64,000 nucleotides of DNA from Candidatus Zambryskibacteria bacterium RIFCSPLOWO2_01_FULL_35_19 (GCA_001825335.1 MHWA01000004.1:35341-99340), one strand, 5' to 3'. Positions 15,122-35,455 are shown, counted from the first letter of the stretch. Notes: a model not told the origin generated them from the sequence alone. A program made the numbers and translations.

Positions 15122-15432
15122 GGATGTTCGGTTTGCAAATGGACTTTTTTATGAAGCTGCGCAACACTTTTTTATTTTAAAGAGCCAACTCTTACTCCAC
15201 TTCTATAAGTTTAACAAGTTCTGCAAATTTTGCATAAGTTTTCTACGAACAAGAAATCTTCTACTCTTAAGGAAGCAGTTTTTATTCTGTCATTATGTAT
15301 GCTCGTGCGCGTGAATTAACGTTCAACGTTGCACAGCAGTCATAAAATCCTAACTGTAAACAAGCTGTTAAAACCTAAAAAAGCTTTATTTTAAGGTCTA
15401 TAATATGAATCTAGTGTAAAATAGCGTAAATA

Positions 15433-16938: not shown

Positions 16939-16992
16939 TAATCAGAGAATACTACTTTTCAGATTCTATTACAATAATTTATGCCATCTGAA

Positions 16993-17295: not shown

Positions 17296-17300
17296 TATCT

Positions 17301-19650: not shown

Positions 19651-20403
19651 CTATGATTCTGAATTCTTACTCCATTCGTAAGGCCCCAAAGCCAAAAATT
19701 GGGCAACTCGCTCCTCACTGGAGAAAAACCAAGCGACAGTTTGAGTTTCAGCAATTCCCTTCCAGTACTCGTTTTCCCTCACATTTTTGAGAGCACAGAC
19801 AAGCTCCTCTGGCCAATACTCGTTAAATCTTGCTTTGATATTTTCTTTAGCTTCTCTGGTCAATCTTTGTCCAGAACGGATTATGTTTGAATAAAGTGTA
19901 TACATTTTTTCTATTTTCTTTTCTATTGCTTTACTATCTATTGTGCTTGCATTTTGTTCATTACTTAACGCTTGCACTTCGTTCAAGGGGGTGGAGCCAC
20001 TTTTTTCTCCACCCGCCTGAACTTGTTGCAAGACTAGAGTATATTCGCTTGTCCACCCCTTGCGTTTCCTAATCGTGATGAACCCCTTATCTTCTAACTT
20101 ATGAAGTGACGTAACGACTTGTCTGTAGCTGAGACCTGTTCCAGTCCCGATCTTGCCACCGCCATTTGCTATTTGTTCTATGCTCATTGTGTCCGAGTTT
20201 TTCTGGAAGCCCCAGGTTCTGCGTAAGATAAACAAAAGCACTCGTGTTTCAGAGCCATTAAGCAGGTGCATGTATGAATCCAGGAGACGAGGAAACATCC
20301 AGAAATTTTTCTTCATTTCTGGAGGAAAGCCAGGAAATTGTTTGGGGTTGTCTTGCATATTTATTAATCTTCGTCCTTCCCATCCTCTTCTTCTGCGAGC
20401 CAA
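19651..20403 (-). CDS. winged-helix DNA-binding protein, phage replisome-organiser/initiator-like
   Basis: 250 aa; RVLLFILRRTWGF...MSIEQIANGGGKIGTGTGLSYRQVVTSLHKLEDKGFITIRK, which resembles the N-terminal domain of phage replication initiation proteins. Confidence 0.4.
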   Translation of the reverse strand: MARRRRGWEGRRLINMQDNPKQFPGFPPEMKKNFWMFPRLLDSYMHLLNGSETRVLLFILRRTWGFQKNSDTMSIEQIANGGGKIGTGTGLSYRQVVTSLHKLEDKGFITIRKRKGWTSEYTLVLQQVQAGGEKSGSTPLNEVQALSNEQNASTIDSKAIEKKIEKMYTLYSNIIRSGQRLTREAKENIKARFNEYWPEELVCALKNVRENEYWKGIAETQTVAWFFSSEERVAQFLALGPYEWSKNSES

Positions 20404-20693
20404 TCTCCAATTGTCATTATCTCTTCGTAGGAGTATGTGAATTTTAGATCAATCTCTCTGCCCTGAATGCGAAATACAATATTTGGACTACCCATATTTG
20501 TTAGAGAATCGTCCAAAAAAGATGGATAGAACGAAATATCAAGCCTTATGGGTTCAGTCATATGTTTGTCGTTGGTGGTATCCCATAGAATTTTGTTAAC
20601 AGCTACTACTACTTTTTCAGCAATTTCTTTAAACGAACTTTTATTAAATTCTTGTGACATTTTTTTGCCACCTTTCTTATTTGTTGTTGACAT
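20364..20693 (-). CDS. hypothetical protein (109 aa)
   Basis: Acidic C-terminus; overlaps the next gene's start by 40 nt, consistent with an operon. Confidence 0.3.
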   Translation of the reverse strand: MSTTNKKGGKKMSQEFNKSSFKEIAEKVVVAVNKILWDTTNDKHMTEPIRLDISFYPSFLDDSLTNMGSPNIVFRIQGREIDLKFTYSYEEIMTIGDWLAEEEDGKDED

Positions 20694-20763
20694 AATTTTA
20701 AATAATTCTTAAGAAGGAGTGTGGGAGCGGACTGACTATTGACCACCCCCAGTTCCTTTACGA

Positions 20764-21195
20764 TTACACTTTTCTATCTCTTGGGGGAACAGGAATGTTT
20801 TGAACTGATTTGTATGTGTTCTTGGTTTTCTTTTTTATCTGCTTTTTTGTCAAATAGCTTGTGTCATCTCTCATTGCCCAATATTCGTCTGGGTCATTGA
20901 AGTACATACTCGGTGTTCCCGCCTCAAACGCACCACTGGAATATTCCAAAGTGTATTTTGGATCATACGCCTTGCCGAAGCTGATTTGTCTGTTAAGCAC
21001 AAGTGGAAGTTTTTTCTTGGAAGGCAACAGTCTTATCCTCAGGATGATATCCCTGGGTATAATCTTGTCTCCTCCACTGAAAAACCCTCTTTTCTCCAAT
21101 TCTGTCGTAATCAACCATTCGGCATCATCTAACAAGTACCAGAGATATTTTTGGTCTTCTGGAAACTCTTTAATTTTTTTAATTTTGTAATTCAT
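20764..21195 (-). CDS. hypothetical protein (143 aa)
   Basis: ORF with plausible composition; no motif. Confidence 0.3.
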   Translation of the reverse strand: MNYKIKKIKEFPEDQKYLWYLLDDAEWLITTELEKRGFFSGGDKIIPRDIILRIRLLPSKKKLPLVLNRQISFGKAYDPKYTLEYSSGAFEAGTPSMYFNDPDEYWAMRDDTSYLTKKQIKKKTKNTYKSVQNIPVPPRDRKV

Positions 21196-21274
21196 AGATT
21201 TTATGCGGTCGGAACGCGGAGCACTTCTACAAAGTACTCCGCTCCTGCCACCGCAATTTATTTACTAACTCAAA

Positions 21275-21589
21275 CTACTCCAGTGGAATCTGGAACTGCG
21301 CCGTCTTTGTATGCTTGCGATAGTATCTAGAGGCCAACTCCATGATAGGAGTCTTGCCTCTAAGGTCCAGTTTGATCTGAGCTTCTTTGAGCTTCGCTGG
21401 TATTTTGCCGAATGCTTTCACTAGACTTGTGGCTATCTGGTTTGCTCCGTCTTCCAGTATGGCCGGCACTATTCCGTAACCTCTGGGCGGCATTGAGTTT
21501 TTGAATTGATATTTCATAACAATTCTTGTTTCTTGTTGGATTATTTTGTTCGCTTTGGAGAAGTATGCTAAACAAACGAGTAAAAGCAC
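21275..21589 (-). CDS. hypothetical protein (possible frameshift with overlapping ORF 21360..21653)
   Basis: Two overlapping reverse-strand ORFs in different frames; the downstream frame has the more protein-like sequence. Confidence 0.25.
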   Translation of the reverse strand: MLLLVCLAYFSKANKIIQQETRIVMKYQFKNSMPPRGYGIVPAILEDGANQIATSLVKAFGKIPAKLKEAQIKLDLRGKTPIMELASRYYRKHTKTAQFQIPLE

Positions 21590-22092
21590 CCGACAAAGAG
21601 TTGCCGGAACCGACCTCTTGCTTTTTTTGTTTGTTGCTCATTTTGACGAACAAAAAATCCGCTTATAATTTGCGGATGCAAGTGGTCAGCATTACGAGAT
21701 TCTGAAGCTGATGCAAACGCATCCTGTCTGAATCCCGTTGGGGCTGAGTCCTTAGTTGTAAGTTTACACTACCATAACCTCTAATTTTTACTTTATGGAA
21801 CCTGTGGATAACGATAAAATACAACACGAAACTTTTAATCTGCAAGACACCCAGATTGCCCGTTAAAAATAAAGCCATATAAAACCATTACTTATACCCC
21901 AAAATTCAGCAGCCGTGAACGCGCAGCCCGACGAAATGATGCTAGCCACCTACTCCTAGTCAGTGCCCAGAAAGGATGTGGCAGAGCAAAGCAGTGCCCA
22001 TTTTCTTAACTTTTCACTTTGAAAGTTGTAAACGAGTGAGGTTCGCACGGAAGCCATAATAAATGAGATTGATTGTCTCTCGCATCTTTTAT

Positions 22093-22614
22093 CTACTCAA
22101 ATTTATCAACAATTTTGTCCAGTTTGTCTGACGCTTCCAGTATCATATTCATAGACTGGTCATAGAGTTTAGAGTCATGTTTGTCTATTGCTCTTCTGTA
22201 AATCGGCATGGAATCTCTAAATAATTCAAAAGCTTGTAAAACTTCTTGATGTATAAGAATCAAGTCTTCAGGCGGAACAATGGCTTTAACTCTTTCGTAA
22301 GATTTTTCTATGATTAGTGTGTGTTTTGCCAACTCCGTCACATCCTTATTTGTCCAGTATTGTTGATACGATTGTAAAAGATTTCGTGCCTCCATTGAAT
22401 TAGTCACATCTTCATAAACACCAATCACTTGGTTGAAGTAAACGGAGGTGCTGTATTTGTTTGCTACATATTTATTATCAGATGGTAGAGACGAAGAAGG
22501 ATTTGATCCACCAGAAAAAGCTACATAAGCCCACAACATTAGAAGCACAAAAAATAAAATAGTCAAAAATCTTTGTGTCTTCTTTGTTTTCACCTCACCA
22601 TTTGTAGAATCCAT
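22093..22614 (-). CDS. hypothetical membrane-anchored protein (173 aa)
   Basis: N-terminal TM LTILFFVLLMLWAYVAF, then a soluble domain. Confidence 0.35.
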   Translation of the reverse strand: MDSTNGEVKTKKTQRFLTILFFVLLMLWAYVAFSGGSNPSSSLPSDNKYVANKYSTSVYFNQVIGVYEDVTNSMEARNLLQSYQQYWTNKDVTELAKHTLIIEKSYERVKAIVPPEDLILIHQEVLQAFELFRDSMPIYRRAIDKHDSKLYDQSMNMILEASDKLDKIVDKFE

Positions 22615-22968
22615 AAAATTTGAATTAAAAAAAACCTGCTACTAATGCAGGCGGCAAGACTCCGACAAAAAGCCCGCCACCAGGAAGGTCCGAAGACCTC
22701 TATAAGAGTTTCCCCTTATAACGTTGAGAACGCCCTGAATGACGGGTTGTTTGTTCTCAACGATTTTCGACCATGCCAGAGTTTGAAGCTACTGGTTTAG
22801 GTCTTTCGGACTATTTAGTTGTATTTATATAGTAATACTTGCCTCTCGTTAAGTAAACAAGTAATTTGAAAAGGCCTTATTATAAATTTATACAAAAAGG
22901 TATAATGACCTTACAAATCCATAGCCTAAACCGTTTTAGCGGCATGGCAAAAACCAACCACGAAATCC

Positions 22969-23994
22969 TCATTGAGGCCTAATTTGCGGTTGGGCGGTCG
23001 ATGAGGATTTTATATTATTCGCTTTTCCTTTAGTCCATTTTTTCGGCACTCTCCGATTCAGTTTTTGCAAGAGTTTAATCTTCAGATTTCTGGATCGGCA
23101 ATGAGAAAGGATTCCGTTATAAGAAGAAAAATTCTTATCTGTCGCTTTCCTTAGTATTCTCTTTTTGGTTTTGGTTCTCAAAATTCTGTAGCTAGGAAAA
23201 CAAACATAGCCAAGGTAATCAATGCCGCTTGAATAAGTTTTCAAGACTATCTTATCTGGATGGATTCTTAATTTTAAATTTTGCTCAGTGAAGTTTTGAA
23301 TTTTGGAAAGGCACAATTCCAAAAAACTTTTGTCTGTGTGCATAAGGATAAAATCATCAGCATATCTGATATATCCCTTGACTTTCAGTTCATGTTTCAC
23401 AAATTGATCAAGTTTATCCATGTAAATATTGGCAAAAATTTGAGAAGTGAGGTTACCAAGCGGTATGCCGGAACCAAAACTTTCCGTTATATCTTCAAAA
23501 AGTTTGATCAGTCTGCAATCAAAAGTCTCTTTTCTTAATATTTTAAGAAGTATTTCGTGGTCAACGGAATCAAAAAATTTCCTGATATCCAGCTTCAATA
23601 CCCACAATGTCCTGCTGTTATTACGAGAAAGCTTAAGTCCCATTTTATAAAGACGCTTAATGGCCCAGTGAGTGCCTTTGTATTTTCTGGAAGACCAAGA
23701 GTCAAAGATAAACTTCTTATCCCACATCTGCTCTATAACTCTGATTATTGCATGATGCAAAAGCCTGTCCCTGACGCTTGCCTTGTGAATATGCCTCTTT
23801 TTTGGATCATTAATGAAAAAGGAAAAATAACCGCCATGTTTATATACCCCATTTACCAAATCTTCATGCAATTTAAAAATATTGTCTTCAAGGTTAAGCT
23901 CAAATTCGGCGACATCCTTCTTTCTCCTTTTGTCCCTGCGAAACTCGGTCCATGCGTCGAACAAATTTTTTAGTGAAATAATTTTTTCAAACAT
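22969..23994 (-). CDS. DGR reverse transcriptase
   Basis: 341 aa; the N-terminus matches the DGR RT pattern (ELNLEDNIFKLHEDLVNGVYKHGGYFSFFINDPKKRHIHKASVRDRLLHHAI); IPLGNLTSQIFANIYM; catalytic IRYADDFILMH. Confidence 0.85.
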   Translation of the reverse strand: MFEKIISLKNLFDAWTEFRRDKRRKKDVAEFELNLEDNIFKLHEDLVNGVYKHGGYFSFFINDPKKRHIHKASVRDRLLHHAIIRVIEQMWDKKFIFDSWSSRKYKGTHWAIKRLYKMGLKLSRNNSRTLWVLKLDIRKFFDSVDHEILLKILRKETFDCRLIKLFEDITESFGSGIPLGNLTSQIFANIYMDKLDQFVKHELKVKGYIRYADDFILMHTDKSFLELCLSKIQNFTEQNLKLRIHPDKIVLKTYSSGIDYLGYVCFPSYRILRTKTKKRILRKATDKNFSSYNGILSHCRSRNLKIKLLQKLNRRVPKKWTKGKANNIKSSSTAQPQIRPQ

Positions 23995-23995
23995 A

Positions 23996-24376
23996 ATGAA
24001 TACAAAAAATGATATTAAAACCGCCGAACAAACTCCTCTGTTCCAAGCAGTCTATAAGCTGTATCTATCATGGTATGTCAGATGCAGCCAAATTCCAAAG
24101 AAAGATAGATTCACTATAGGCCAAAAGACAGAAAATCTGCTTTTGGAAATTCTAATTTTGGTAGTTACCGCCTACCATACGAACAATCCGGAATATAAAA
24201 GGCAATCTCTATCTAAAGCAAATACTCTGCTTGAATGCGTCAAAGTCACTATCCGGTTGGCCAAAGATGTTAAAGCTTTGGAACAGCGCTGGTATATTGA
24301 TTACCAAACCAGAATCCAGGAAATGGGTAAAATGCTCGGCGGGTGGATCTCTAGTACATGCAAAACGAACGGATAA
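23996..24376 (+). CDS. avd: Avd-like accessory variability determinant (four-helix-bundle family)
   Basis: 127 aa from the internal ATG of ORF 23882..24376. YLSWYVRCSQIPKKDRFTIGQKTENLL...EMGKMLGGWISS parallels phage BPP-1 Avd as I recall it (YLYPIAQSIPRKHGV...EVGRILGSWIAR). It is oriented divergently from the RT; its stop overlaps a hairpin plus T-run. Confidence 0.6.
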   Translation: MNTKNDIKTAEQTPLFQAVYKLYLSWYVRCSQIPKKDRFTIGQKTENLLLEILILVVTAYHTNNPEYKRQSLSKANTLLECVKVTIRLAKDVKALEQRWYIDYQTRIQEMGKMLGGWISSTCKTNG

Positions 24377-24410
24377 ATGTCCGTCCGTTTTTTCTTTACG
24401 AGAGTGACTT

Positions 24411-24528
24411 CGGAGGGAAACAACACCCAAATTGTCGTTGCGTTGCCCTGGGTTATTGTTGTTGACGTTGACGCCGTTGCGGTCAGCGTTGCCGAGATTC
24501 ACAAGCTTGCCGTTAGAGGAAAGGGTTG
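24411..24528 (-). repeat. DGR template repeat (TR)
   Basis: ~118 nt matching both VRs. All ~13-14 mismatches to each VR fall where the TR has T on the plus strand, which is A on the transcribed minus strand. It translates as ...NLGNADRNGVNVNNNNPGQRNDNLGVVSL, rich in AAC codons. A hairpin follows its 3' end at 24362-24391. Confidence 0.8.
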
Positions 24529-24825
24529 TTTTTGCGTCTCTCCATCCAGATCAGAGGCCTTAACCGGGCAGGCGCATCTTATAGGATGTAAGTAGCGCCT
24601 GTTGTGTAAAAATGTGGTGGCTGATTTAATCCGTCACCTAAGTGAATTTACATAAATCACCACTCCAGAGCGACGCAAGCAGTTCTTCTCTCATAATTCA
24701 ATGTTGGCGAGAATCATGACATGCACGATCCTTCATTAGCCATAAACATTATAGCACCTCAAAAAAATTGCGGCGAAGAAACCAAAGATTCAAAGAATAA
24801 ATATCAAAGTATCAAGAGAGAAAAA

Positions 24826-25809
24826 TCAGCGGAGGGAAACAACACCCAAATTGCCGTCGCGATGCCCTGGGTCATCGTCGTTGACGTCGACGCCGCTGCG
24901 GCCAGCGTCGCCGAGATCCACAAGCCTGCCGTCAGAGGAAAGGGTGTTAGACCAGTCATAGTTTGCTTCCAAAATGCCCCTTTCTTTCCTATTTCTAAAC
25001 TGCAAAACCCAGTCATACAATATTTCCGCCGGAATACGCCTATGGTTTTTATTTATCAAAAGTTCCGAAAGTTTCCTTGCCACTTCTTTCCAATTTTTAT
25101 CATAATCTTCGTCAAGCATTTTTTGGAGTCCTTCAAGAAGTTCGTCGGTACATTCTTCTTGTTCTTCCTTTGAAACGGAATCCAAACCCATAAGATAATC
25201 GCGTAACACCTTGGTTTGTTCTATATAATTTTTACTGGTGGAATCGGGCACAAAATTTTTGCCAACCAGTTTCCATTCGGTCCTTAAAGAAGCGTTTTTG
25301 AAAAAATCTTCAGTTTGATACCAGCCTATGTCGTAAAGCAATTTTTCCTGTTCTTCTTCGCTATCTTCCTCTAAAATTGCTTGCATGAGTCCATTCATTC
25401 TCTCCATAGTCATAGGAGATCCTTCTCCATCGCTTTCTACCCGTAGCACAAGCATTTCTCCGTTCCCCTTAGCTTTTTCAAGTATTTCAGGACTATATGG
25501 AATGGCTGGCACTTTTTCTTGAGGGAATTCAAATCTAAAAGTACTCTTTATTTCTTCAACTCCATAAAAACTATCGCTCATGATCTCTTGGGCTTGTTCA
25601 TAAGAAGTTTCAATTCCTTCACTTGTTTTTTTATTACCAACACCAAGTTCTTGTTTAAGTTTTATATATTTTTCTTTTATAGCCTTGAGTTCCTGGACGC
25701 TTAAAGAGTTAAGCTCTCGGCCTTTTTGGATGACAGTTATTTCTTCAACAATTTTAGAGCCGAGCTCGCTCTCTTTTTCGGGATTTGTGGTTTTAGGTGC
25801 ACCTTCCAT
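24826..25809 (-). CDS. DGR target protein 1 (short paralog, C-terminal variable module)
   Basis: 327 aa; the C-terminal ~150 aa are paralogous to target 2; ends ...DLGDAGRSGVDVNDDDPGHRDGNLGVVSLR. Confidence 0.7.
   Translation of the reverse strand: MEGAPKTTNPEKESELGSKIVEEITVIQKGRELNSLSVQELKAIKEKYIKLKQELGVGNKKTSEGIETSYEQAQEIMSDSFYGVEEIKSTFRFEFPQEKVPAIPYSPEILEKAKGNGEMLVLRVESDGEGSPMTMERMNGLMQAILEEDSEEEQEKLLYDIGWYQTEDFFKNASLRTEWKLVGKNFVPDSTSKNYIEQTKVLRDYLMGLDSVSKEEQEECTDELLEGLQKMLDEDYDKNWKEVARKLSELLINKNHRRIPAEILYDWVLQFRNRKERGILEANYDWSNTLSSDGRLVDLGDAGRSGVDVNDDDPGHRDGNLGVVSLR
24829..24946 (-). repeat. DGR variable repeat VR1
   Basis: Begins immediately 5' of the stop codon; differs from the TR only at TR adenines (Asn AAC becomes Asp, Ser or Gly). 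Confidence 0.8.
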
Positions 25810-25905
25810 ATTTTTGCTTATTTAAAGCCAGTATATCATAAAAATTTTCGCGGAAAAACCAAAGGAACAAAGGGAAAAGATCAAAGGTTCAATATGAGAA
25901 AAGAA

Positions 25906-28290
25906 CTAGCGGAGGGAAACAACACCCAAATAGTCGTAGCGTAGCCCTGGGTAATCGTTGTTGACGTCGACGCCGTCGCGGTCAGCGAGGCCGAGATCCA
26001 CAAGCTCGCCGTAAGAGGAAAGGGCTGCTGTCCAATCATAGGTCTTCTCCAAAATTCGCTCATTATTGCCCTTTATGGAGAGCAAGATGTCATAAAGGAC
26101 TTCTGGCGGCAGTCTCCTGTGATTTTTGTTCACGGTAAGCTCAGAGAGTCTTCTAGCCGCCTCCTGCCAGTCTGATTTCATAATTTCGTTAATTTCTTCA
26201 AGAACTTTATCGGAACATTCTTTGGCCTCATCTTCAGTCAGAGATCCCAGTGATATTAAATATTCGCGCAATATTTTTGTTTGCTCTATATAATTTGTGG
26301 ATCCTTCAGCTTTACCGCCATAAGAAGTAGTCACCGACTCAGGAAGAGGAGCTTTGGTTGTAAGCCTCCATTTCAAGCGAGGATGAGTATTTGGAATTGG
26401 CGTGCCATCTTTATTGATTCCGGTGTAAAACGGCTCATCTTTATACCAACAACTACTTTCTAACTTTGCTGCACCAGATTTATCTTGTCCATACAAAACC
26501 TTAATTTTTTCTCCAGTAGCAGGATCGATCAATTCAGGAATCATTTCAAGCATATGAGATATGGTAAGGAACTTACCTTCTGAGTCTTTATCAACTCCGA
26601 GTACAAGCATTTCTCCATTCTCCTTGGCCTTTTCAAGATCATCCGGCGAATATGGCATATCTGGAATATCTTCAAGAGCCACTTTGATACCAAAAGTCTT
26701 TTCAATTTTTTCAGGTCCCATATAGTCTTTGCCCAACATTTCTTTTGCTAATTCCATTTTTTTAAGCAAAGTATCAGGTGAAGTTCTTCTCTCCGGCTTT
26801 GATAGTTTACCACTGGCCTCAACTTCTGCTTTCAGTTTTTCAATATCTTTAATGAGCCCAGCCTTTTCTGGAGATATACCGGCAGTTTCTAAGCTTTTTC
26901 TTTTTGATTCTCCCGGCTTAGGTTTGTATTCCACTAATCTTATAAGCTCCCCGAGCTTTTTTCTGTCAGCGTCACTCTCCAATTTATTGGCGTAATAATA
27001 ACGGAGAGCTTGTTGCATGGTTTCGTTAATATCTCCATTATAAAATCTCAAAATAAAATCTCTGACTCTACGAGGTTCCATACGATCATCGTAAGTGAAA
27101 GGTTGAGGCTGATCTTCAGCAATTTTTCTATTTTTCAAAAGCTCTTTGGCCGCTTTATGAAATTCTTTAAATTTTTCCAAAACTTCAGGCAGTCCTTGAA
27201 TATCTTGGAGTTGCTCTGTTGTTAAACCTTCACCTCTGGCTCTGAGGAACATGTCAGGAGTTATATTTTGCGTTCCAGCTCCTATTCCAAAAAGGGCGTC
27301 TGTTGAAAATGAGAACGTGCCTTCTGGAAGTTCGGTTGGCAGTTTTTTGTAAACCCATCTTCGGAGTTGGGCAGGATCTAGTGGTTCACGACCAAAATAT
27401 CCTTTGCCTGGAGGGTTCATCAGGGCAATAATTTTGGTCTTCTCTTTATTCACAGCTACAGCTTCTGAAGCATCTTCAGACAATACGACATCTCCACCCC
27501 TTTCAAGAGAATCTAAAACTTCATGGAGACGAATGAGAATGTTTGGGGCTGAAGCGTTGAATTCGTCCAATATAATTATTTTTGTCTTGCCTTCTTCTTG
27601 CCTCAAACCGCTTGTTACTTTGCCGTCTGCAAAAATATATTCAGGATCTTCAGGTTTATTTTTGTGAGGATTGGGAATGTATCTCCCCATCAAATCTTCA
27701 ACATCAGTTGCCCCGTTGAGGTTCGCATAATGAATCTCCCAACCAAGTTCAGCTGCCATCTTTTTAACCGTTGTGGTTTTGCCTAGAGATGTTCCACCAT
27801 CAACAAGCAGAGGCTCACCGCTTACAAACGCCACAGCGATATCTCTTTGCAAAGGCAAAGCCACTTCTTTGTCATTTATAAAATCTTGGTATTGCTCTCT
27901 TCTTGGTATAAATTGACCATTACCATTTTTTGCTTTCTCCAAACCAACTCCAAGATAAGAAACGCTGCTTTCAGTTTCTTCAATAGAATTTTCAGTTATG
28001 GGAATAATCTCTACAAATAATTTACCGCTCATGGGATCCTCCGGATTGGTGTCTTCCACAACTCTAACCTTATACGGATATCCAGGCTCCGGTACTGGAG
28101 AAGATTTTGCCAAAATAATAATTTTCCTGCTTGGAGAACTGCTTTTATATTCCTTTTCGCCACTCTTTTTTTGCTGTTCTTCAAATATGACATCATCAAT
28201 AAAATTGCCCCCTTCTTGTGTCCCCACATTTTCTATTTTAGCCTTATTTTTAGGGTCAAAATTGATATTTTCCATTTCAGTGCTTGACAT
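25906..28290 (-). CDS. DGR target protein 2: MoxR/AAA_5-family ATPase fused to a DGR-diversified C-terminal module
   Basis: 794 aa; Walker A GGTSLGKTT; Walker B KIIILDEFNASAPNILIRLHEVLD (the DEFN matches MoxR DEINRA); sensor region IIALMNPPGKG...DPAQLRRW; the C-terminus ...DLGLADRDGVDVNNDYPGLRYDYLGVVSLR carries VR2. Confidence 0.75.
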   Translation of the reverse strand: MSSTEMENINFDPKNKAKIENVGTQEGGNFIDDVIFEEQQKKSGEKEYKSSSPSRKIIILAKSSPVPEPGYPYKVRVVEDTNPEDPMSGKLFVEIIPITENSIEETESSVSYLGVGLEKAKNGNGQFIPRREQYQDFINDKEVALPLQRDIAVAFVSGEPLLVDGGTSLGKTTTVKKMAAELGWEIHYANLNGATDVEDLMGRYIPNPHKNKPEDPEYIFADGKVTSGLRQEEGKTKIIILDEFNASAPNILIRLHEVLDSLERGGDVVLSEDASEAVAVNKEKTKIIALMNPPGKGYFGREPLDPAQLRRWVYKKLPTELPEGTFSFSTDALFGIGAGTQNITPDMFLRARGEGLTTEQLQDIQGLPEVLEKFKEFHKAAKELLKNRKIAEDQPQPFTYDDRMEPRRVRDFILRFYNGDINETMQQALRYYYANKLESDADRKKLGELIRLVEYKPKPGESKRKSLETAGISPEKAGLIKDIEKLKAEVEASGKLSKPERRTSPDTLLKKMELAKEMLGKDYMGPEKIEKTFGIKVALEDIPDMPYSPDDLEKAKENGEMLVLGVDKDSEGKFLTISHMLEMIPELIDPATGEKIKVLYGQDKSGAAKLESSCWYKDEPFYTGINKDGTPIPNTHPRLKWRLTTKAPLPESVTTSYGGKAEGSTNYIEQTKILREYLISLGSLTEDEAKECSDKVLEEINEIMKSDWQEAARRLSELTVNKNHRRLPPEVLYDILLSIKGNNERILEKTYDWTAALSSYGELVDLGLADRDGVDVNNDYPGLRYDYLGVVSLR
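25909..26026 (-). repeat. DGR variable repeat VR2
   Basis: Same structure as VR1; about 14 adenine-specific differences from the TR. Confidence 0.8.
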
Positions 28291-28494
28291 TATAACTCAT
28301 ATTTGCTATAATATACCCAGAATAGTTCTTTAAATTGTCTGGAAGGTTTTGAAAGAAGTACGACGGGACGCTGGCTAGCCATGCCAAACTCCCCCAAACA
28401 AAACGCGCCAGACCTAGCCACGGTCCGGGACGCACCCCAGCCTCTTTAAAAAGAAGGGGCTTTTTTTTATTTAAAAATGAAAATTTTTGAGTAT

Positions 28495-28902
28495 TCATGA
28501 TTGATATGCCGGACCGCAATTGGCTAATATATTCCAGCCTTTGTCTTGAAGTTTATTCAAATCTTCTTTCAAAACAAGAAAAATCACACAGCCATTGGTA
28601 TAGTCTGGAGAAAACGTTTTTGATTCCATCACGTTATTATCAAAAATTTCCACTTGGCCTGTAGGATACTGAATCAGGAAATCATAAAAATCTTTGCTCA
28701 TATTTTCGCCTGCAACAAGATATGTTTTGGCAGAATTAAATAGATCTGAAATATTATCTGATCGTTTGAATCCTTCGCTCTCCATTGCTCCCGAAAAATC
28801 GCTCAATTGATCTCTGTCTTGGGCTATAATTAGCCCCACTTCTTTTTGGCCAAAAGTTGCCTTAAGAAAATCGGTAAATTCTTTGTTTTCAGTTTCTTTC
28901 AT
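28495..28902 (-). CDS. hypothetical protein (135 aa) between the VWA and MoxR genes
   Basis: Plausible composition; no motif. Confidence 0.3.
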   Translation of the reverse strand: MKETENKEFTDFLKATFGQKEVGLIIAQDRDQLSDFSGAMESEGFKRSDNISDLFNSAKTYLVAGENMSKDFYDFLIQYPTGQVEIFDNNVMESKTFSPDYTNGCVIFLVLKEDLNKLQDKGWNILANCGPAYQS

Positions 28903-28916
28903 ACAGCTTATTTATA

Positions 28917-31202
28917 CTAAAAATTCTGATAATTGGCAATCACTTCTTTTATAAGGTCAGCCAACTTCTCAGCCATTTCTTCCACTTTAACATTTGCAAT
29001 GCTATTTGGATAATATCTGCCAACATGATCGGTCCCCCCACCTATACCCAAACCTATCAAACGAATATCGCTTTCTTCAAGCACTTGTTTGATCATTTTC
29101 CCAAGTTCATATTTTGTCCTCGGATGCATTGAGGATTCCTCAGGTGTGCCATCAGACATGACAATCAAAAATTTCTGATCGGCTTTTTGTTTCTCTAATC
29201 TTTTTGAGGCTTGCTCCAATGCCCAGCCGTCATCATTCCATCTGGCCTTCCCTGTATCGCTAGTATCGTTTACCTCTTGAAGCATGCCTCCCATATGCTC
29301 TCTTATAATTTTGGACATCTGCTCTCCAAAATCTTGATACTCATACATGCGATCATTAAATCCAAGTATTTCAAGATTTATAGATAAGCGGTTTAAAACT
29401 TCCGACAAAACAATAACGGCTTTGAAAGTTTCTTCTATTTTATTTCCGTTGGACATAGAACCGGAAAGATCAACCAATATGGAAATAGCGTAATCTTTTT
29501 CTTTTGGAAGTTCTCTTTTTTGCCAAGCTTTGCTCTCCATAGCCGGAACAGATTTGGCTTTCTCTTGAATCCTTCTTTTAATATCAATCCGCTTGCCGGT
29601 AGTGAAGCCGCTTTTCCAGCCTCTGGCTCTACGCTCGACGAATATCTCTCTCAAATCATTTTCAAGTTTGTCTATGAGCGGAAGGACTTCTTTTCTCATT
29701 CGTTCATAAACATTTTCGTCCTTTTTTAATTCTTTAGCTACTCTGTCTTTGTATTTTTTTAATTCTTCCTCATCAACTTCTTGTGTTTCTCTTCCGGTTT
29801 TTGTTTCTTGCTCAACTTCTTGTTTTGGCTTAACTTCGGCATCTCGTTCCGCCTTCTTTTCCGGATTATCAGAAAGTTTGCCTTGCAACTCTTCATTAAG
29901 AGCCTCCTCAAATTCTTTCATGGCTTTTTCAGCCTTATCTTTTATTTCTTTTTGCTCTCCTTCCGGGAGAGACTGGATATACTCTTTTATCTTTTGTTTT
30001 AAATCTTCAGAAAGAGAGTCTAAATCTATAGGTTTGGTTCCCGGGGATTGTTGTCCTTCCGTATCCTGTGGTTCACCTTCTCCAGCTGATTCGGAAGACT
30101 CTTCAGATTTTTCTCCTTTCTCTCCTTCAGCTTGTTGCTTTTCTTTCTCTGCTTTTTCTTTAGCCTCCTGTTGCTCCTTTTTGGCCTGTTCAATGGCTTT
30201 CTTTATGGCCTCCTCTAAAGCTTGCTGCTCTTCCGGAGTTAATTTATCTTTCAGTTCTTGTGGCATTCCTTTTTCTCCTTTTTCTTCGCCTCCGTCTTTT
30301 TCTTTCTGCATATCCTTTAACAATTCTTCCATTTTTTGATCTTCCATATCAGCTTCAACCAATTTTTTAAACTCTGGCCATATTTGATCTCGATTTATTT
30401 GATACGAAAGCTCGGCATATTTTCTGATCAACCCTTCGCTTTTGTCAGCCTCTTGTCTAGAAGGATATCTGAGCCAGGAATCTTGGGCCGATAACAGAGT
30501 CGCTTCAACTGCAGTTTTAACTTCCTCCGGCAAATCTGGAGACAATTCAAAATCTTGCTCTTTAGTTTCTCTAAACCATTGTTTAATATATTCAAATCCG
30601 GCCTGCATAAAGCGGGGCTTATATCCAAGTTTTTGCTCGGCTTTTTCTTTGGCCTTGGCTTCAAAATCCAAATCTTGTTCATAGGCCAAACCCATTTGTT
30701 CTCCAAATTTAGGATAACTTTCAGCCACAAAGTTATTGTCTCTTGGGTCTTCTATAGAATTCATCATGAAAGAAAACCCCGGTTGCTTCCATTCTTCCAA
30801 AGGAATAAAATCAGTCCGGCTGATTCTTCTGTGGCCGCCTTCATGAGAAATGACAAATCTTAAATAATCCATCGGTTTTTCCAAAAGATCTTTAGGATCA
30901 ATTCGTATTATGTTATTTTTAAAATCCCAATACCAACCGCCACCAGATTCATTAAGCTCAATTGGAATACGAAAATCTTTGCCTATGAAATACGCAAGAG
31001 AAGAGAGGGTCTGTTGTTTTTGTTTTATTTCTTCCTGCTGTTCAGGAGTAAACTCCGCAAGAATTTGTTTTTCTCTTTCTGGTTTCAGAGCTTTATATAT
31101 CTGCTCCGGCATTTCCGCAGTTTCGTTTTCAGGTATTTTGCCGTCTAATTTAATGCCCTCCATAAAATTGATTATAACTATATTGTGTCGCAAATTGGAC
31201 AA
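28917..31202 (-). CDS. DUF2201-like protein: N-terminal HExxH metallopeptidase-like domain, long K/E-rich coiled region, C-terminal VWA domain with MIDAS motif
   Basis: 761 aa; VISHEGGHRRISR (HExxH); VWA ISILVDLSGSM (DxSxS) ... LIVMSDGTPEE; this is the classic partner type of MoxR ATPases. Confidence 0.65.
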   Translation of the reverse strand: MSNLRHNIVIINFMEGIKLDGKIPENETAEMPEQIYKALKPEREKQILAEFTPEQQEEIKQKQQTLSSLAYFIGKDFRIPIELNESGGGWYWDFKNNIIRIDPKDLLEKPMDYLRFVISHEGGHRRISRTDFIPLEEWKQPGFSFMMNSIEDPRDNNFVAESYPKFGEQMGLAYEQDLDFEAKAKEKAEQKLGYKPRFMQAGFEYIKQWFRETKEQDFELSPDLPEEVKTAVEATLLSAQDSWLRYPSRQEADKSEGLIRKYAELSYQINRDQIWPEFKKLVEADMEDQKMEELLKDMQKEKDGGEEKGEKGMPQELKDKLTPEEQQALEEAIKKAIEQAKKEQQEAKEKAEKEKQQAEGEKGEKSEESSESAGEGEPQDTEGQQSPGTKPIDLDSLSEDLKQKIKEYIQSLPEGEQKEIKDKAEKAMKEFEEALNEELQGKLSDNPEKKAERDAEVKPKQEVEQETKTGRETQEVDEEELKKYKDRVAKELKKDENVYERMRKEVLPLIDKLENDLREIFVERRARGWKSGFTTGKRIDIKRRIQEKAKSVPAMESKAWQKRELPKEKDYAISILVDLSGSMSNGNKIEETFKAVIVLSEVLNRLSINLEILGFNDRMYEYQDFGEQMSKIIREHMGGMLQEVNDTSDTGKARWNDDGWALEQASKRLEKQKADQKFLIVMSDGTPEESSMHPRTKYELGKMIKQVLEESDIRLIGLGIGGGTDHVGRYYPNSIANVKVEEMAEKLADLIKEVIANYQNF

Positions 31203-31415
31203 TAAGACAAATATGGACTGATGCGGATTTAAGCGGTATTATTTATAGATAATTGAATAAGCCTAAACTTGCCAAGCCAAATTAGCAAGCATGGCGCAAA
31301 CCCAACCACGGCAGAGAACTCCTCGTTCAGGAGCACCGTGGTTGGTCCCATCCGGAAACGGGTGGTGGGTGGCGTAAGCCATCGCCTGGCGGGGAGTTTT
31401 CTGCCATCCCAAAAC

Positions 31416-32951
31416 TTAATATTGTTGTTTTGGTCTGTAAGAAATAGCTTCTAAAATATGGGAAGAAGAAATCTCAATGGAAGATTCTAGATCCGCAATG
31501 GTACGAGCCAACTTAATGATTTTGTGATAACTCCTAGCAGAAAGATCTAAAGTTTTTGCCGATCTGTTTAAAATCTCTTTTACTTCGTCTGATATTTTTA
31601 AAATGAGAGTAATATCTCTAGCATTCATTTCAGAGTTAGTAGATATTTTTCTACCAGCATTTTTGAATCTTTTTTCTTGAATATCTCTCGCCTTCATTAT
31701 TCTTTCCCTTGCTGGGATACTCTCACTCTTTTCGGCTTTCTCTGTTAATTTTTCATGATCTACCTTTGAAACTTCTGTCCATATATCTATACGATCTATT
31801 ATGGGTCCAGATATTTTTCTCTTGTATCTTTCAATTTGAAGCGGTGCGCAAGTACACGGTTTACCTTTTATTCCAAAATTTCCACACGGACAAGGATTCA
31901 TAGCGGCTACGAGTATGAAGTGCGCAGGAAACTTTACGGTGCCTTTGGCTCTTGAAACCGAAACAACCCTTTCTTCTAACGGCTCTCTCAAAGCTTCGAT
32001 TGCTTTATTTTCAAATTCTGGAAATTCGTCAACAAATAATATTCCCTTGTGGGCTAAAGTGACTTCCCCCGGCCTCGGATTAGTACCACCACCAATCAAA
32101 GCAACATAAGAGGCTGTGTGGTGAGGAGATCTAAAAGGTCTCTCTGCTACTAAACTATCATTCAAGGCGCCAGTCATAGAATGTATTTCTGTCACCTCTA
32201 AAGCTTCTTCAAATGAAAGTGGTGGTAGAATACCAGGCAGAGCTTTGGCGAGCATAGTTTTTCCTGTTCCAGGAGGTCCATAAAGAGCGATGTTGTGTCC
32301 GCCAGCCGCGGCTATCTCCAAAGCCCGTTTAGCTGATTCTTGACCTTTAATATCGGCAAGATCAAGAGAAATGTTATGCAAATTTTTTATCTCTTTTTTC
32401 TTTTCTTGTTTTAGCTTTTGGTTTATATCAGTATCATGGGCAACATGATTTATAATTTCCACCAAAGTTTCTGCTCCAAAAACAGCAATGCCGTCAACAA
32501 GAGCTGCTTCTGGAGCGTTTTCCACTGGTAGATATATTTCTCTGAAACCTTTTTCTTTTGCCTTACGAGCAAATGCTAAAGCTCCTTTTACGGATCGCAA
32601 ACCTCCGTCAAGTGAGAGCTCTCCAAGAAAAATTTTGTCTTTAGAATCAAACAGAATATCTCCGCTTGCTAACAAATATGACAAAGCAATAGCAACGTCT
32701 AAACCAGATCCTTCTTTTCTGACTTCAGCTGGTGCTAAAGATATAACAACTTTATGATTTTTTGACTTTGGGGATTCAAAACCAGAATTCTTAACAGCAG
32801 CGCTTATTCTATCTTTAGCTTCTTCAACGGCCTTATCACCTAGTCCAACTATTGAGAAAGAATTCAATCCTCTGGAAAGATCAGCCTCCACATCAACAAT
32901 ATATGGTTTGAGAAGTGAAGCTTGAGCACTGTGAACTTTAGCATATGACAT
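31416..32951 (-). CDS. comM: Mg-chelatase-like AAA+ ATPase ComM/YifB (intact copy, inside the element)
   Basis: 511 aa; N-terminal Lon-like domain; Walker A YGPPGTGKTMLAKAL; ILFVDEFPEF; Cys cluster MNPCPCGNFGIKGKPCTCA. Confidence 0.85.
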   Translation of the reverse strand: MSYAKVHSAQASLLKPYIVDVEADLSRGLNSFSIVGLGDKAVEEAKDRISAAVKNSGFESPKSKNHKVVISLAPAEVRKEGSGLDVAIALSYLLASGDILFDSKDKIFLGELSLDGGLRSVKGALAFARKAKEKGFREIYLPVENAPEAALVDGIAVFGAETLVEIINHVAHDTDINQKLKQEKKKEIKNLHNISLDLADIKGQESAKRALEIAAAGGHNIALYGPPGTGKTMLAKALPGILPPLSFEEALEVTEIHSMTGALNDSLVAERPFRSPHHTASYVALIGGGTNPRPGEVTLAHKGILFVDEFPEFENKAIEALREPLEERVVSVSRAKGTVKFPAHFILVAAMNPCPCGNFGIKGKPCTCAPLQIERYKRKISGPIIDRIDIWTEVSKVDHEKLTEKAEKSESIPARERIMKARDIQEKRFKNAGRKISTNSEMNARDITLILKISDEVKEILNRSAKTLDLSARSYHKIIKLARTIADLESSIEISSSHILEAISYRPKQQY

Positions 32952-33127
32952 ATTGTACTTTTATAATAACAAATTTTCTGAACACTTTTTCGCGAAGAAG
33001 CGGAGGCCTTCCTATACAGGCCATATACTGCCTCTTTTTTTTATTGCTTTTACAAACCGACCATCAATTTGTTCGTACCGCTAAACAGCATATACCCCTC
33101 TTTCCAAGCCGACTATTAGAAAGAGCA

Positions 33128-34037
33128 CTCCTTTGTGAGCTAAAGTAACTTCGCCCGGCTTTATATTGCTCCCCCCTCCGATGATAGCTACATGAGAAGC
33201 AGTGTGATGCGGAGAACGAAAAGGTCTCTCAAAAACCAATATGTCATTTAAAAATCCAGACATAGAATGAATCTCTGTCACTTCTAAAATTTCATCAAAT
33301 GAAAGCGGAGGCAAAATACCAGAAAGAGCTTTGGCCAACATTGTTTTACCTGTCCCCGGTGGTCCATAAAGAGCGATATTGTGTCCACCAGCAGCTGCTA
33401 TTTCCAAAGCTCGTTTAGCTGATTCTTGACCTTTAATATCTGCCAAATCAAGCGAAATATTTCTCAAATTTTTAATCTCTCTTTTCTTTTCTTGTTTTAT
33501 TTTTTGATTTATATCAGTATCGTGAGCAATATGATTTATTATTTCCTGTAAAGTTTCTGCCCCGAAAACAGCAATACCCTCTACCAAAACGGCTTCTGGA
33601 GCATTTTCAATTGGCAAATATATTTCCCTGAAGCCCTTTTCTTTAGCTTTACGAGCAAAAGCCAAAGCTCCCTTGACTCTCCGCAATCTACCATCAAGTG
33701 AAAGTTCTCCCAAAAAAATCTTGTCTTTAGAATCAAAAATAATATCACCACTGGCTAATAGATATGAAAGAGCAATAGCCACATCCAGACCAGAGCCCTC
33801 CTTTTTAACCTCGGCAGGAGCAAGGGAGATCACCACTTTGTGATTTTTTGATTTTGGAGATTCAAAACCGGAGTTTTTAACGGCTGCACTAATCCTATCT
33901 TTGGCTTCATCTACCGCCTTGTCTCATAAGCCAACAATAGAAAAAGAATTCAGACCGCGAGAGAGATCTGCTTCTACGTCAACAATATAAGGTTTTAAAA
34001 GTGATGCTTGAGCGCTGTGAACTTTGGCGTAAGACAT
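33128..34037 (-). pseudogene. comM: 5' fragment (N-terminal portion) of the disrupted comM, decayed
   Basis: MSYAKVHSAQ...IVGL*DKAV... has an in-frame TGA at 33924-33926; ~88% aa identity to the intact copy up to LAHKGVLF, then diverges into element-border sequence. Confidence 0.7.
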
Positions 34038-34054: not shown

Positions 34055-34423
34055 TCAACTCTCCATATGAGCTTTGCAAGTGCGAGCAGCGGGGTTAGCG
34101 ATAAGACGCTCTTCTTCTATTTCTTCGCCCGAGACTTCACACATACCATATTCATTTTTTTCAATCTTAGTTAAAGCATCTTTGACATCATTGTATCTGA
34201 TTTCTAGTTCTTTTAAGACCGCAGTATTACTTTCAAATTCTTCAATATTGTCAGCCACTTCATTTGAGTCGGCGCTATCAACATTCATATCAGAGGGTTC
34301 AGCTTCCCAATCTTTTTTGTTAGATGGATTTTTTCGTCCAATAGAATTCAACTCATTCTCAACTAAGATGAGTTCTTCTTCTAATTTGGTCTTAAAATAT
34401 TCTATGTCTATATCATTTCTCAT
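34055..34423 (-). CDS. DksA/TraR-family zinc-finger protein (YteA-like)
   Basis: 122 aa; coiled-coil N-terminus; C-terminal YGMCEVSGEEIEEERLIANPAARTCKAH. Confidence 0.55.
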   Translation of the reverse strand: MRNDIDIEYFKTKLEEELILVENELNSIGRKNPSNKKDWEAEPSDMNVDSADSNEVADNIEEFESNTAVLKELEIRYNDVKDALTKIEKNEYGMCEVSGEEIEEERLIANPAARTCKAHMES

Positions 34424-34447
34424 AATGCATATTATATCACAAATTAT

Positions 34448-35455
34448 TTATCTAACAATTGAACGAGAAGCGTAAACAGAGGATACTTCTCCTATAGCTG
34501 TCAAATCTCCAGTAATCAAAATAGTATTTTTATCAAGAAAAGTGTAAGCCATCTTGGCTTGATTTTTAGAATTAATCAATCCTCTAGTGTCCTTGTTTTT
34601 AATAATAATATCTTTCCAAGCAAAAATTTCTGGCTTTAAAGGTATCGTAGTTTCTGTGGTGCTAGCCGTCTGTTTTAAATCTATTGGAGAATCAACACTT
34701 TGCGTTTTTGGATTCAAAAAAGCCAAATCTTCTATCATATTATTTTCCCATTCAAGCATACCCGAAAAAGCTCTTCCAAAATCGTTCACCGTCAATATAA
34801 TAAAGGGGAAAGTTTTTTCGTTTTGAGAAATAGCGCCAACTAGATATTCATCTTTAAGAGTTCTCTCTAAAATAGACGGCAAAGAAACTCCCAAAAAATC
34901 AAACAAGTCCTCTGGCTTTTTAAACAGTTCTCCATCAGTCCCTGATATTTGAAAAGCACTAACTCCATTTTCCAAATGTAATCCCGAAAGTTCAGACCCA
35001 AAATTTGTTTTGGTAACATTGGCGAGAGTAACCAGATTATTGTAAGGAAGGATATCTTGCTCAAGTGTCACTTCAACTACTGGTGATATTTTTAATGTCT
35101 TGATGATATAAAAAATAACAGTGCCTGCACTAATAATTAAAAACAAACTCAAGATTATTATTGTAAAATTTATTTGAAGACCACTATATTTTGATTTTTC
35201 TTTTGACTTTGGAAACATTACTGGATTTTCTACTTCTTTTTTTTCTTTTATCTGTTCTGTTTGTCTTTTTTCTTTCTCTCTTTCTTCTTTTTCTTTTTCT
35301 TTCACCACAATAGAGACGATTGATTCGTCTTTATTTTTTATAAATTCAGCCATATCTCCTTGATAGGTGCGCAATGAGGGTAGTTTGGTTTTATTGTGCA
35401 AAAGATCAATCACTTTACCAAACTTATTAACTTCTTCCTTTTTTTCAGGATCCAT
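34448..35455 (-). CDS. hypothetical membrane protein (335 aa, single TM, K/E-rich N-terminus)
   Basis: TM INFTIIILSLFLIISAGTVIFYII; no motif. Confidence 0.4.
   Translation of the reverse strand: MDPEKKEEVNKFGKVIDLLHNKTKLPSLRTYQGDMAEFIKNKDESIVSIVVKEKEKEEREKEKRQTEQIKEKKEVENPVMFPKSKEKSKYSGLQINFTIIILSLFLIISAGTVIFYIIKTLKISPVVEVTLEQDILPYNNLVTLANVTKTNFGSELSGLHLENGVSAFQISGTDGELFKKPEDLFDFLGVSLPSILERTLKDEYLVGAISQNEKTFPFIILTVNDFGRAFSGMLEWENNMIEDLAFLNPKTQSVDSPIDLKQTASTTETTIPLKPEIFAWKDIIIKNKDTRGLINSKNQAKMAYTFLDKNTILITGDLTAIGEVSSVYASRSIVR

What the first reader, a model, noticed from the sequence alone, without database searches (positions are those of the whole stretch)
31416..32951. The element carries its own intact comM adjacent to the decayed host 5' fragment
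A full-length comM (511 aa, all motifs intact) lies on the element immediately next to the decayed 5' fragment of the disrupted gene, in the same orientation. It is about 170 nt from the right junction.

The element therefore replaces the function of the gene it destroys. This resembles phages that carry replacement tRNA 3' ends, but here for a whole protein gene. It could also bring comM and competence under element-side regulation. The ~12% protein divergence between the element copy and the host fragments suggests the element copy came from a different lineage.
Basis: inference. Interest (0 to 1): 0.6.

Follow-up and report, generated by a model that had tools for sequence, protein, structure and literature searches.

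The report
Mobile element carries spare comM gene
An 18-kb mobile element has split this groundwater bacterium's comM gene (a DNA-recombination helicase) but carries its own complete, conserved comM just inside the junction, so it most likely repairs the damage it causes. That is unusual, because insertions in comM are usually read as a way to switch the gene off.

Summary
comM at 31416-32951 (-) is full length (511 aa, three ComM domains, E=1e-113 to solved ComM). It lies 166 nt inside the right junction of a ~18.0-kb insertion (15121-33117).

The insertion splits the host comM at Walker-B codon 306. Joining the two host pieces at a shared CT gives an in-frame 512-codon gene with one nonsense codon. 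Relatives have the empty site, dksA-like - comM - PGA_cap, so tandem paralogs are refuted.

The element encodes a large serine recombinase. Relatives of this recombinase (41-70% identity) also sit next to comM 3' fragments starting at residues 303-307.

Three other loci carry the same module of att arm, conserved spacer and intact comM. Two show a host 5' fragment beside it. In one of them the host fragment is only 65% identical to the carried copy.

The four carried copies form one clade (97% bootstrap on DNA) and evolve at dN/dS about 0.03 with dS above 1. This indicates one capture followed by long purifying selection.

Functional replacement is inferred, not shown. Expression probably comes by read-through from the host dksA-like promoter rather than from element-side control. 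At least one related element lacks the copy. "Decayed" is overstated, and protein divergence is about 9%.

The parts
31416..32951 (-). Intact element-borne comM (511 aa). It is the first gene inside the right (P') end of the element and has the same orientation as the disrupted host gene.
   Evidence: ORF. Pfam ChlI + Mg_chelatase + Mg_chelatase_C. Full-length match to ComM 8rxd. It groups with the other element-borne copies.
32952..33117 (-). Element-side spacer between the junction and comM. On the minus strand it holds: the P'-like arm AATAGTCGGCTTGGAAAG at the crossover (33117-33100); a 52-nt stretch from the crossover to the second arm (called the '57-nt piece' in my working notes); the second arm GATGGTCGGTTTGTAAAAG (33065-33047); then an A8 run, a GGCC hairpin and the leader to the ATG.
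   Evidence: Sequence. Comparison with the L019, L022 and L191 junctions. No promoter-like or minus-strand terminator-like site is called here.
33118..34037 (-). Host comM 5' fragment (codons 1-306 up to the CT core). It has one nonsense codon (codon 38, 33926-33924).
   Evidence: tblastn, translation, reconstruction.
14502..15122 (-). Host comM 3' fragment (CT core, codons 306-512 and the stop). The frame is open.
   Evidence: tblastn. Pfam Mg_chelatase + Mg_chelatase_C. Joined with the 5' fragment it gives 1539 nt in frame.
15121..33117 (-). The whole inserted element, about 18.0 kb, with all long genes on the minus strand. Order: comM, LOOT RNA, VWA/CobT-like, 135-aa ORF, AAA_5 ATPase, diversity-generating retroelement (DGR), LOOT RNA, small ORFs, RepO-like initiator, large serine recombinase, Schlafen/AlbA_2 protein.
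   Evidence: Pfam, PHROGs, Rfam, empty sites in relatives.
15123..15141 (-). P arm of the attachment site at the left junction (CATTTGCAAACCGAACATC, followed by the CT core). It is the inverted partner of the P' arms.
   Evidence: Sequence. The same arm lies next to comM 3' fragments in L108 and L111.
17301..19061 (-). Large serine recombinase (586 aa), the presumed integrase.
   Evidence: Pfam Resolvase + Recombinase. 333 relatives, those carrying names being candidate-phyla-radiation (CPR) bacteria. Relatives at 41-70% identity lie next to comM 3' fragments.
34055..34458 (-). Host dksA/traR-type zinc-finger gene (34055-34423) with the best promoter-like site of the region just upstream (34458-34431, TTGTTA-16-TATAAT with TG). 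This is the likely native promoter of the comM operon.
   Evidence: Pfam, promoter scan. The dksA-like gene and comM are 1-52 nt apart in empty-site relatives.
31260..31383 (+). LOOT RNA (RF03000), convergent with comM and ending 33 nt from its stop codon.
   Evidence: Rfam 76.9 bits against a gathering score of 46.4. L191 has the same arrangement.

Best explanation
An ~18-kb integrative element of a candidate-phyla-radiation bacterium (Parcubacteria/Zambryskibacteria-like MAG GCA_000990165.1) inserted by large-serine-recombinase site-specific recombination into the Walker-B codon (306) of the host comM.

The element carries, as the first gene inside its P' end and in the same orientation as the broken gene, a complete comM. 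This copy was captured once from a closely related chromosome and has since travelled with the element lineage under strong purifying selection.

After integration this copy sits 166 nt behind the truncated host 5' fragment, with no detectable terminator in between. It is therefore most likely transcribed from the host's own dksA-comM promoter and supplies ComM in place of the split gene.

Shown: the insertion, its precise junctions, the empty site, recurrence of the module in other hosts, common descent of the carried copies and their sequence constraint.

Inferred: that the copy is expressed, that it complements, that expression is by read-through, and that the recombinase at 17301-19061 made the insertion.
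For: 1. **Clean insertion.** The fragments cover residues 1-307 and 306-511. Joined at a shared CT they give a 1539-nt in-frame gene of 512 codons, the usual length in this group.
2. **Empty site in relatives.** Relatives keep pnp - o335 - dksA-like - comM - PGA_cap - smpB, the same flanks as the window's fragments.
3. **Recombinase and att arms.** The recombinase has Resolvase + Recombinase domains. The P and P' arms form an imperfect inverted repeat around CT. Recombinase relatives in L108, L111, L113, L116, L117, L120, L121 and L188 are followed by comM 3' fragments starting at residues 303-307.
4. **Recurrence.** L019 and L191 show a dksA-like gene, a comM 5' fragment ending at the same codon, the same conserved spacer, then an intact comM. 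L022 starts exactly at the P' arm and continues into comM. Cargo differs between them: copper resistance in L019, no DGR in L022.
5. **Foreign copy.** In L191 the carried copy is 92% identical to the window's carried copy but 65% identical to its own host fragment.
6. **Common descent.** The four carried copies are monophyletic on DNA (97% of 300 bootstraps). They sit among chromosomal comM of one genus-level group.
7. **Constraint.** dN/dS is 0.027-0.040 among the carried copies, with dS 1.07-2.07. All domains and motifs are intact.
8. **Expression context.** In empty-site relatives the dksA-like gene and comM are 1-52 nt apart. In the window no promoter-like site and no minus-strand terminator-like site is called in the spacer, and the best promoter-like site is upstream of the dksA-like gene.
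9. **Not an assembly error.** All ten places shown (other similar places were collapsed) from the 23 contigs read, from NCBI, ENA and JGI assemblies, have the same arrangement.
Against: - No expression or functional data exist. Complementation is inferred from sequence constraint and gene position only.
- The protein tree does not resolve the carried copies as a clade; chr_L189 falls among them. The DNA tree rests on partly saturated synonymous sites and a simple model (NJ, Jukes-Cantor).
- The copy is not a universal feature of the element family. L113 holds both junctions and no intact comM. For L108, L188 and L196 the far end was out of reach.
- For L019 only one junction was seen, and no recombinase or LOOT RNA lies within 10 kb.
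- No excised circle (attP) was found.
- ComM's role in these bacteria is unknown. Restoring ComM would in theory re-expose the element to removal by transformation.
Confidence: 0.8

Rival explanations
1. The carried comM serves the element itself rather than compensating the host. It might act as a helicase for the element's replication, integration or spread by transformation, or as bait or homology for recombination.
For: - The element has its own replication initiator and recombinase.
- comM-like genes occur on two contigs of the viral collection at 40-48% identity.
- The copy is conserved in elements whose cargo differs.
Against: - The copy is 90-93% identical to ordinary chromosomal comM of the same genus-level group. 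It has the same length and all motifs, and its dN/dS is the same as between chromosomal copies (0.03-0.05). There is no sign of a change of function.
- Its position and orientation directly behind the truncated gene fit complementation.
- A related element does without it (L113).
Confidence: 0.12
2. The host ancestrally had tandem comM paralogs, one of which was hit by an unrelated insertion.
For: Two comM-like sequences lie head to tail.
Against: - Every related chromosome examined has a single comM downstream of the dksA-like gene, followed by PGA_cap wherever the contig extends that far (L023, L189, L192, L027 and L071; L194 and L195 end before or lack PGA_cap).
- None of 80 species-representative loci has a fragment plus an intact copy.
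- The intact copy lies between the two halves of one precisely reconstructable gene.
- The same module occurs in a host whose own comM is only 65% identical.
Confidence: 0.02
3. The arrangement is a metagenome assembly artefact, with strain variants of comM joined wrongly.
For: The source is a metagenome-assembled genome. Contigs L022 and L095 break at or near the insertion site.
Against: - The same arrangement appears in all ten places shown from the 23 contigs read, from independent assemblies and samples.
- The copies differ by 21% in DNA, too much for assemblers to confuse them.
- The junctions have recombinase-type arms that recur in other hosts.
Confidence: 0.01
4. The carried comM is a recent passenger picked up by chance and not maintained.
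For: Cargo in this element family is highly variable.
Against: Four elements in different hosts share the module. Synonymous divergence is above 1 while dN/dS is about 0.03, and the flanking spacer is conserved.
Confidence: 0.03

Closest known systems
Integrating elements that rebuild their target gene: phage 21 and e14 in icd, islands in tRNA and tmRNA 3' ends, SXT in prfC, dusA-associated islands (from my own knowledge; not checked in papers here)
   Same: The element inserts inside a conserved gene and brings sequence that keeps the gene's function available after integration.
   Different: Those elements carry only the displaced gene end, placed next to the att site so that a hybrid gene forms across the junction. 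Here the crossover lies mid-gene. No hybrid is formed, and a separate complete gene with its own start codon is supplied 166 nt inside the junction.
Mobile elements inserted in comM (AbaR islands of Acinetobacter; elements in Aggregatibacter, Mannheimia, Francisella, Pseudomonas, Vibrio)
   Same: The target gene is the same. It is hit recurrently by different element families (PMC4774983, PMC12378983, PMC11441513).
   Different: Those insertions inactivate comM and are read as a strategy to block transformation-mediated removal of the element. Here an intact comM comes with the element, so ComM is most likely kept. The recombinase type also differs. I did not check the recombinase types in those papers; from my own knowledge AbaR islands are Tn7-like transposons.
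Phage WO sr1WO of Wolbachia
   Same: A large serine recombinase integrates into the host's Mg-chelatase-family gene, leaving gene halves on both flanks (PMC9203015).
   Different: WO is a tailed prophage, and the passages I read describe no replacement copy. The element here has no structural phage genes among the ORFs scanned. I did not compare the crossover position in the Wolbachia gene.

Membership tests
ComM / YifB Mg-chelatase-like AAA+ helicase (the intact copy) | N-terminal ChlI/Lon-like domain, AAA+ Mg_chelatase domain and Mg_chelatase_C domain in one roughly 500-aa protein | tested here: met
   PF13541 6.7e-36, PF01078 2.5e-92, PF13335 1e-25. Residues 7-507 align to ComM 8rxd residues 9-497.
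ComM / YifB Mg-chelatase-like AAA+ helicase (the intact copy) | Walker A, Walker B and cysteine-rich zinc motif intact | tested here: met
   GPPGTGKT, LFVDEF and CPCGN..GKPCTC align with the solved protein. Val replaces the usual Leu before DEF, as also seen in some chromosomal copies.
ComM / YifB Mg-chelatase-like AAA+ helicase (the intact copy) | Branch-migration helicase activity and a role in natural transformation | not testable with these tools
   This needs biochemistry or genetics. The function is known from Vibrio, Acinetobacter and Legionella (PMC6158740, PMC11612176).
Large-serine-recombinase integrative element | Recombinase with N-terminal resolvase catalytic domain plus recombinase domain, over 500 aa | tested here: met
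   PF00239 3.6e-38 and PF07508 4.3e-18 in a 586-aa protein. Conserved R20/S22 and cysteines across 45 relatives.
Large-serine-recombinase integrative element | Precise insertion at a short shared core, no target duplication, imperfect inverted-repeat arms on the element side | tested here: met
   Joining the fragments at the shared CT restores the reading frame. P arm CATTTGCAAACCGAACATC against the reverse complements of the two P' arms: 15 of 17 and 12 of 17 bases by my own hand count on the sequences.
Large-serine-recombinase integrative element | Unoccupied target site in relatives | tested here: met
   L023, L189, L192, L194, L195, L027, L071.
Large-serine-recombinase integrative element | Excised circular form (attP) and recombination activity | tested here: inconclusive
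   No attP join was found in the fetched loci or in the viral collection. The metagenome collection could not be scanned again. Activity is not testable here.
Target-restoring integrative elements (icd / tRNA / prfC type) | The element carries the displaced gene end next to att, so that a hybrid functional gene forms across the junction | tested here: not met
   The frame across the junction ends after 11 foreign codons. The carried gene is complete and separate.
comM-inactivating mobile elements | Insertion leaves the cell without an intact comM | tested here: not met
   An intact copy under constraint lies inside the element. Met for the related element in L113 as far as that contig shows.
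Tailed prophage (for example phage WO) | Capsid, terminase and tail genes | tested here: not met
   Pfam and PHROGs scans of the long ORFs found none; only replication, DGR and ATPase/VWA functions appeared. Small ORFs were not all scanned.

The most novel reading that the evidence does not exclude
A lineage of candidate-phyla-radiation integrative elements has domesticated a chromosomal comM as a permanent antidote to its own insertion. This would imply that ComM is too valuable to lose in these reduced-genome bacteria, and that comM is targeted as a conserved landing site rather than to block transformation.

In addition, the carried copy may have altered the crossover codon (Leu CTN/TTG to Val GTT or Ala GCT, changing the central dinucleotide). 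Its own recombinase then could not cut it. The Val alleles seen in some chromosomal comM would be host escape alleles, which would amount to an arms race at a Walker-B codon.
Probability: 0.15. Interest if true: 0.75.

Novelty: new variant of a known kind. Interest (0 to 1): 0.55.

Why it matters
Insertions of mobile elements in comM are currently read as a weapon. By breaking a transformation gene, the element protects itself from being removed by recombination (PMC4774983, PMC11441513, PMC12378983).

Here a family of elements uses the same gene as its landing site. One lineage, however, has carried a full working-looking comM for a long time (synonymous divergence above 1, dN/dS about 0.03). 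This argues that comM can be chosen simply because its Walker-B sequence is conserved. It also argues that in these small-genome groundwater bacteria, losing ComM costs enough for the element to pay for its replacement.

It is also a clear case of whole-gene compensation, as opposed to the usual gene-end compensation, by an integrating element. The attB, attP, attL and attR sequences defined here make the system directly testable.

Tried and rejected
1. **Crossover-codon marker.** I predicted that a non-Leu residue at crossover codon 306 (Val or Ala) marks element-borne copies. Three Val-bearing homologs (P0049, P0030, P0025) turned out to be ordinary chromosomal genes between the dksA-like gene and PGA_cap or smpB. 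The residue is therefore not a discriminator. Self-immunity remains only a weak possibility.
2. **Gene conversion.** A sliding-window comparison of the host and carried copies in the window shows 69-91% DNA identity and no near-identical tract.
3. **Viral collection.** The recombinase found nothing. ComM found two distant hits only. An attP pattern found nothing.
4. **Far end of the L019 element.** A search with the host 3' fragment did not return a piece on that contig, so the second junction of L019 is unseen.
5. **More distant recombinase relatives.** L188 and L196 were fetched to see whether they carry comM. Their elements extend beyond the 10-kb flank, so they are uninformative.
The terminator scan does not call it, and its fold energy is unremarkable (z = -1.7 on the plus strand, -0.6 on the minus strand).
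7. **LOOT RNA literature.** The source paper's main text holds no description of the motif.

Full report
**What is there.**
The window is the reverse strand of contig LBPL01000003.1 of GCA_000990165.1, a Parcubacteria-group groundwater MAG. The ORF 31416..32951 (-) encodes a 511-aa protein with the three ComM/YifB domains. It aligns over its whole length with solved ComM 8rxd (E=1.1e-113), including Walker A, Walker B and the cysteine motif.

tblastn with this protein finds two more pieces on the same strand. Residues 1-307 lie at 34037..33117 (90.9% aa, 79% nt). Residues 306-511 lie at 15125..14505 (89.4% aa, 78.6% nt). The 5' piece has no indels and one in-frame stop (codon 38). The 3' piece is open.

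Joining the pieces at a shared CT (33119-33118 and 15122-15121) gives 1539 nt in frame. That is 512 codons, the usual length in this group, and the product is 90.8% identical to the intact copy. 'Decayed' is too strong, and the divergence is about 9% rather than about 12%.

**It is an insertion, not a tandem paralog.**
Relatives keep pnp - 335-aa gene - dksA-like - comM - PGA_cap - smpB - ftsH, with a single comM. These are the genes that flank the window's two fragments (L023, L189, L192, L194, L195, L027, L071). None of 80 species-representative loci has a fragment plus an intact copy. All ten places shown (other similar places were collapsed) from the 23 contigs read, from independent assemblies, have the window's arrangement. 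Misassembly is therefore excluded.

**The element.**
The segment 15121-33117 (~18.0 kb) has all its long genes on the minus strand. In order it carries:
- comM, then a LOOT RNA;
- a VWA/CobT-like protein, a 135-aa ORF and an AAA_5 ATPase;
- a diversity-generating retroelement (DGR), then a second LOOT RNA;
- small ORFs and a RepO-like initiator;
- a 586-aa large serine recombinase and a Schlafen/AlbA_2 protein.

No phage structural or conjugation genes were found among the ORFs scanned.

The ends look like serine-recombinase att arms. The arm CATTTGCAAACCGAACATC-CT lies at the left junction. At the right junction lies CT-AATAGTCGGCTTGGAAAG, with a second and better-matching arm GATGGTCGGTTTGTAAAAG beginning 52 nt further in.

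The recombinase belongs to a large family whose named members are candidate-phyla-radiation bacteria (333 hits). Relatives at 41-70% identity are followed by a comM 3' fragment starting at residues 303-307 in L108, L111, L113, L116, L117, L120, L121 and L188. L108 and L111 carry the same P arm. The family as a whole therefore targets the Walker-B codon of comM.

**The carried comM is a conserved module of one element lineage.**
- L019 (Hainich groundwater) has dksA-like - comM 5' fragment ending at the same codon - the same A-run/hairpin spacer - intact comM (97.5% aa to the window's copy). Entirely different cargo follows, namely copper resistance.
- L191 has rpsJ - dksA-like - 5' fragment - the same spacer including the extra inner piece - intact comM - antisense LOOT RNA - VWA gene.
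- L022 starts exactly at the inner P' arm. It continues through comM to a recombinase that is 89% identical, without a DGR.
- In L191 the host fragment is only 65% identical to the neighbouring intact copy, whereas that copy is 92% identical to the window's. The gene has therefore moved with the element into a distant host.

On DNA the four carried copies are 79-85% identical to each other and at most 81% identical to any chromosomal copy. They form one clade in 97% of bootstraps, nested among chromosomal comM of one genus-level group, with chr_L189 as a weakly supported sister. The protein tree is less resolved.

Among the carried copies dN/dS is 0.027-0.040 with dS 1.07-2.07. This is the same constraint as between chromosomal copies. 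The simplest history is one capture followed by long maintenance.

**How it most likely works.**
In empty-site genomes comM starts 1-52 nt after the dksA-like gene, which implies one operon. In the window the best promoter-like site of the region is just upstream of the dksA-like gene. No promoter-like site and no minus-strand terminator-like site is called in the 166-nt spacer.

I therefore infer that the carried comM is read from the host promoter through the truncated fragment. The truncated frame stops 11 codons past the junction. The carried copy would thereby replace the split gene.

A whole gene rather than a gene end makes sense here because the crossover is mid-gene. A fused repair would force the att arm to encode part of the AAA+ core. 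This rationale is inference.

**Limits.**
- The copy is not universal in the element family. L113 contains both junctions and no intact comM.
- The far ends of L108, L188 and L196 were out of reach.
- L019's second junction was not seen.
- No excised form was found.

**A test that failed.**
The residue before DEF is Leu in 113 of 122 homologs. It is Val or Ala in three of the four carried copies, which changes the presumed central dinucleotide. I predicted that Val or Ala marks element-borne copies. Three Val-bearing homologs proved chromosomal. Self-immunity of the carried copy remains a weak, testable idea only.

**Comparison with what is known.**
- Mobile elements in comM are well documented and are read as blocking transformation-mediated curing (PMC4774983, PMC12378983, PMC11441513).
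- A large serine recombinase targeting the Mg-chelatase-family gene is known from phage WO (PMC9203015).
- Elements that rebuild a target carry a gene end that fuses across the junction (icd, tRNA, prfC, dusA; from my own knowledge).
- I found no description of an element that inserts in comM and brings a full replacement. My literature searches were limited.

I rate this a new variant of known kinds. It is of moderate interest because it runs against the usual reading of comM insertions and suggests ComM is valuable in these bacteria.

Noticed in passing
window 22969-26030: A complete diversity-generating retroelement (DGR) lies inside the element. It has a reverse transcriptase (22969-23994, -) and bAvd (23996-24376, +). 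The template repeat is at 24397-24526. There are two variable repeats, at the C-terminal ends of the 327-aa ORF (24816-24945) and of the 794-aa AAA_5 ATPase (25896 to about 26025). All mismatches in the repeat core fall at template adenines.
   Followed up: partly
window 22685-22803 (-) and 31260-31383 (+); L022 7189-7307; L191 11569-11687; L113 6925-7046; L188 5519-5638: LOOT RNA (RF03000), whose function is not described in the paper I checked, is present in five of the six recombinase-element loci scanned (twice in the window); it was absent from L108 and from the 10 kb of L019. It is absent from the two empty-site loci scanned. It may be a hallmark RNA of this element family. In the window and in L191 it is convergent with comM, ending about 33 nt from the stop codon.
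   Followed up: partly
window 33117-33047; L191 about 9836-9906: The right end holds two P'-like arms, starting 52 nt apart. The outer arm is the crossover in the window and in L191. The inner arm is the crossover in L019 and the start of contig L022. The bases just before the inner arm (GGTACGAACAAATT) weakly resemble a P arm, so the inner site looks like a whole attP. It may be a relic of an earlier fusion or stacking of elements. This is unexplained.
   Followed up: partly
window 15433-16938 (-); L188 12424-13959: The slot between the recombinase gene and the left junction holds different defence-like genes in different elements. In the window it is a Schlafen/AlbA_2 + HATPase_c_4 protein, which matches PADLOC models of pAgo-associated proteins. 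In L188 it is a CD-NTase plus Cap15 (CBASS).
   Followed up: no
L126, L127 (11481-12470), L136 (11574-12668): Distantly related serine recombinases (28-29% identical) lie next to a comM piece covering residues about 3/19-357 on the opposite strand. This may be a second recombinase family that cuts comM at another position.
   Followed up: no
L192, L194, L195 (chromosomal comM): Some chromosomal comM genes carry Val (GTA, GTT or GTC) instead of the near-invariant Leu at the recombinase crossover codon. They could be alleles that escape integration. This was not tested.
   Followed up: partly
window 11001-13000: This stretch has clearly higher G+C (0.46-0.48 against about 0.35 around it). Its ORFs (11756-12142, 12330-12734) have no Pfam match, and Rfam finds nothing at gathering threshold.
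   Followed up: no
L095 (contig CAYXQM010000069.1): This contig ends at residue 300 of a comM that is 91% identical to the carried copy, with a dksA-like gene upstream. The break may be an assembly break at another occupied or polymorphic insertion site.
   Followed up: no
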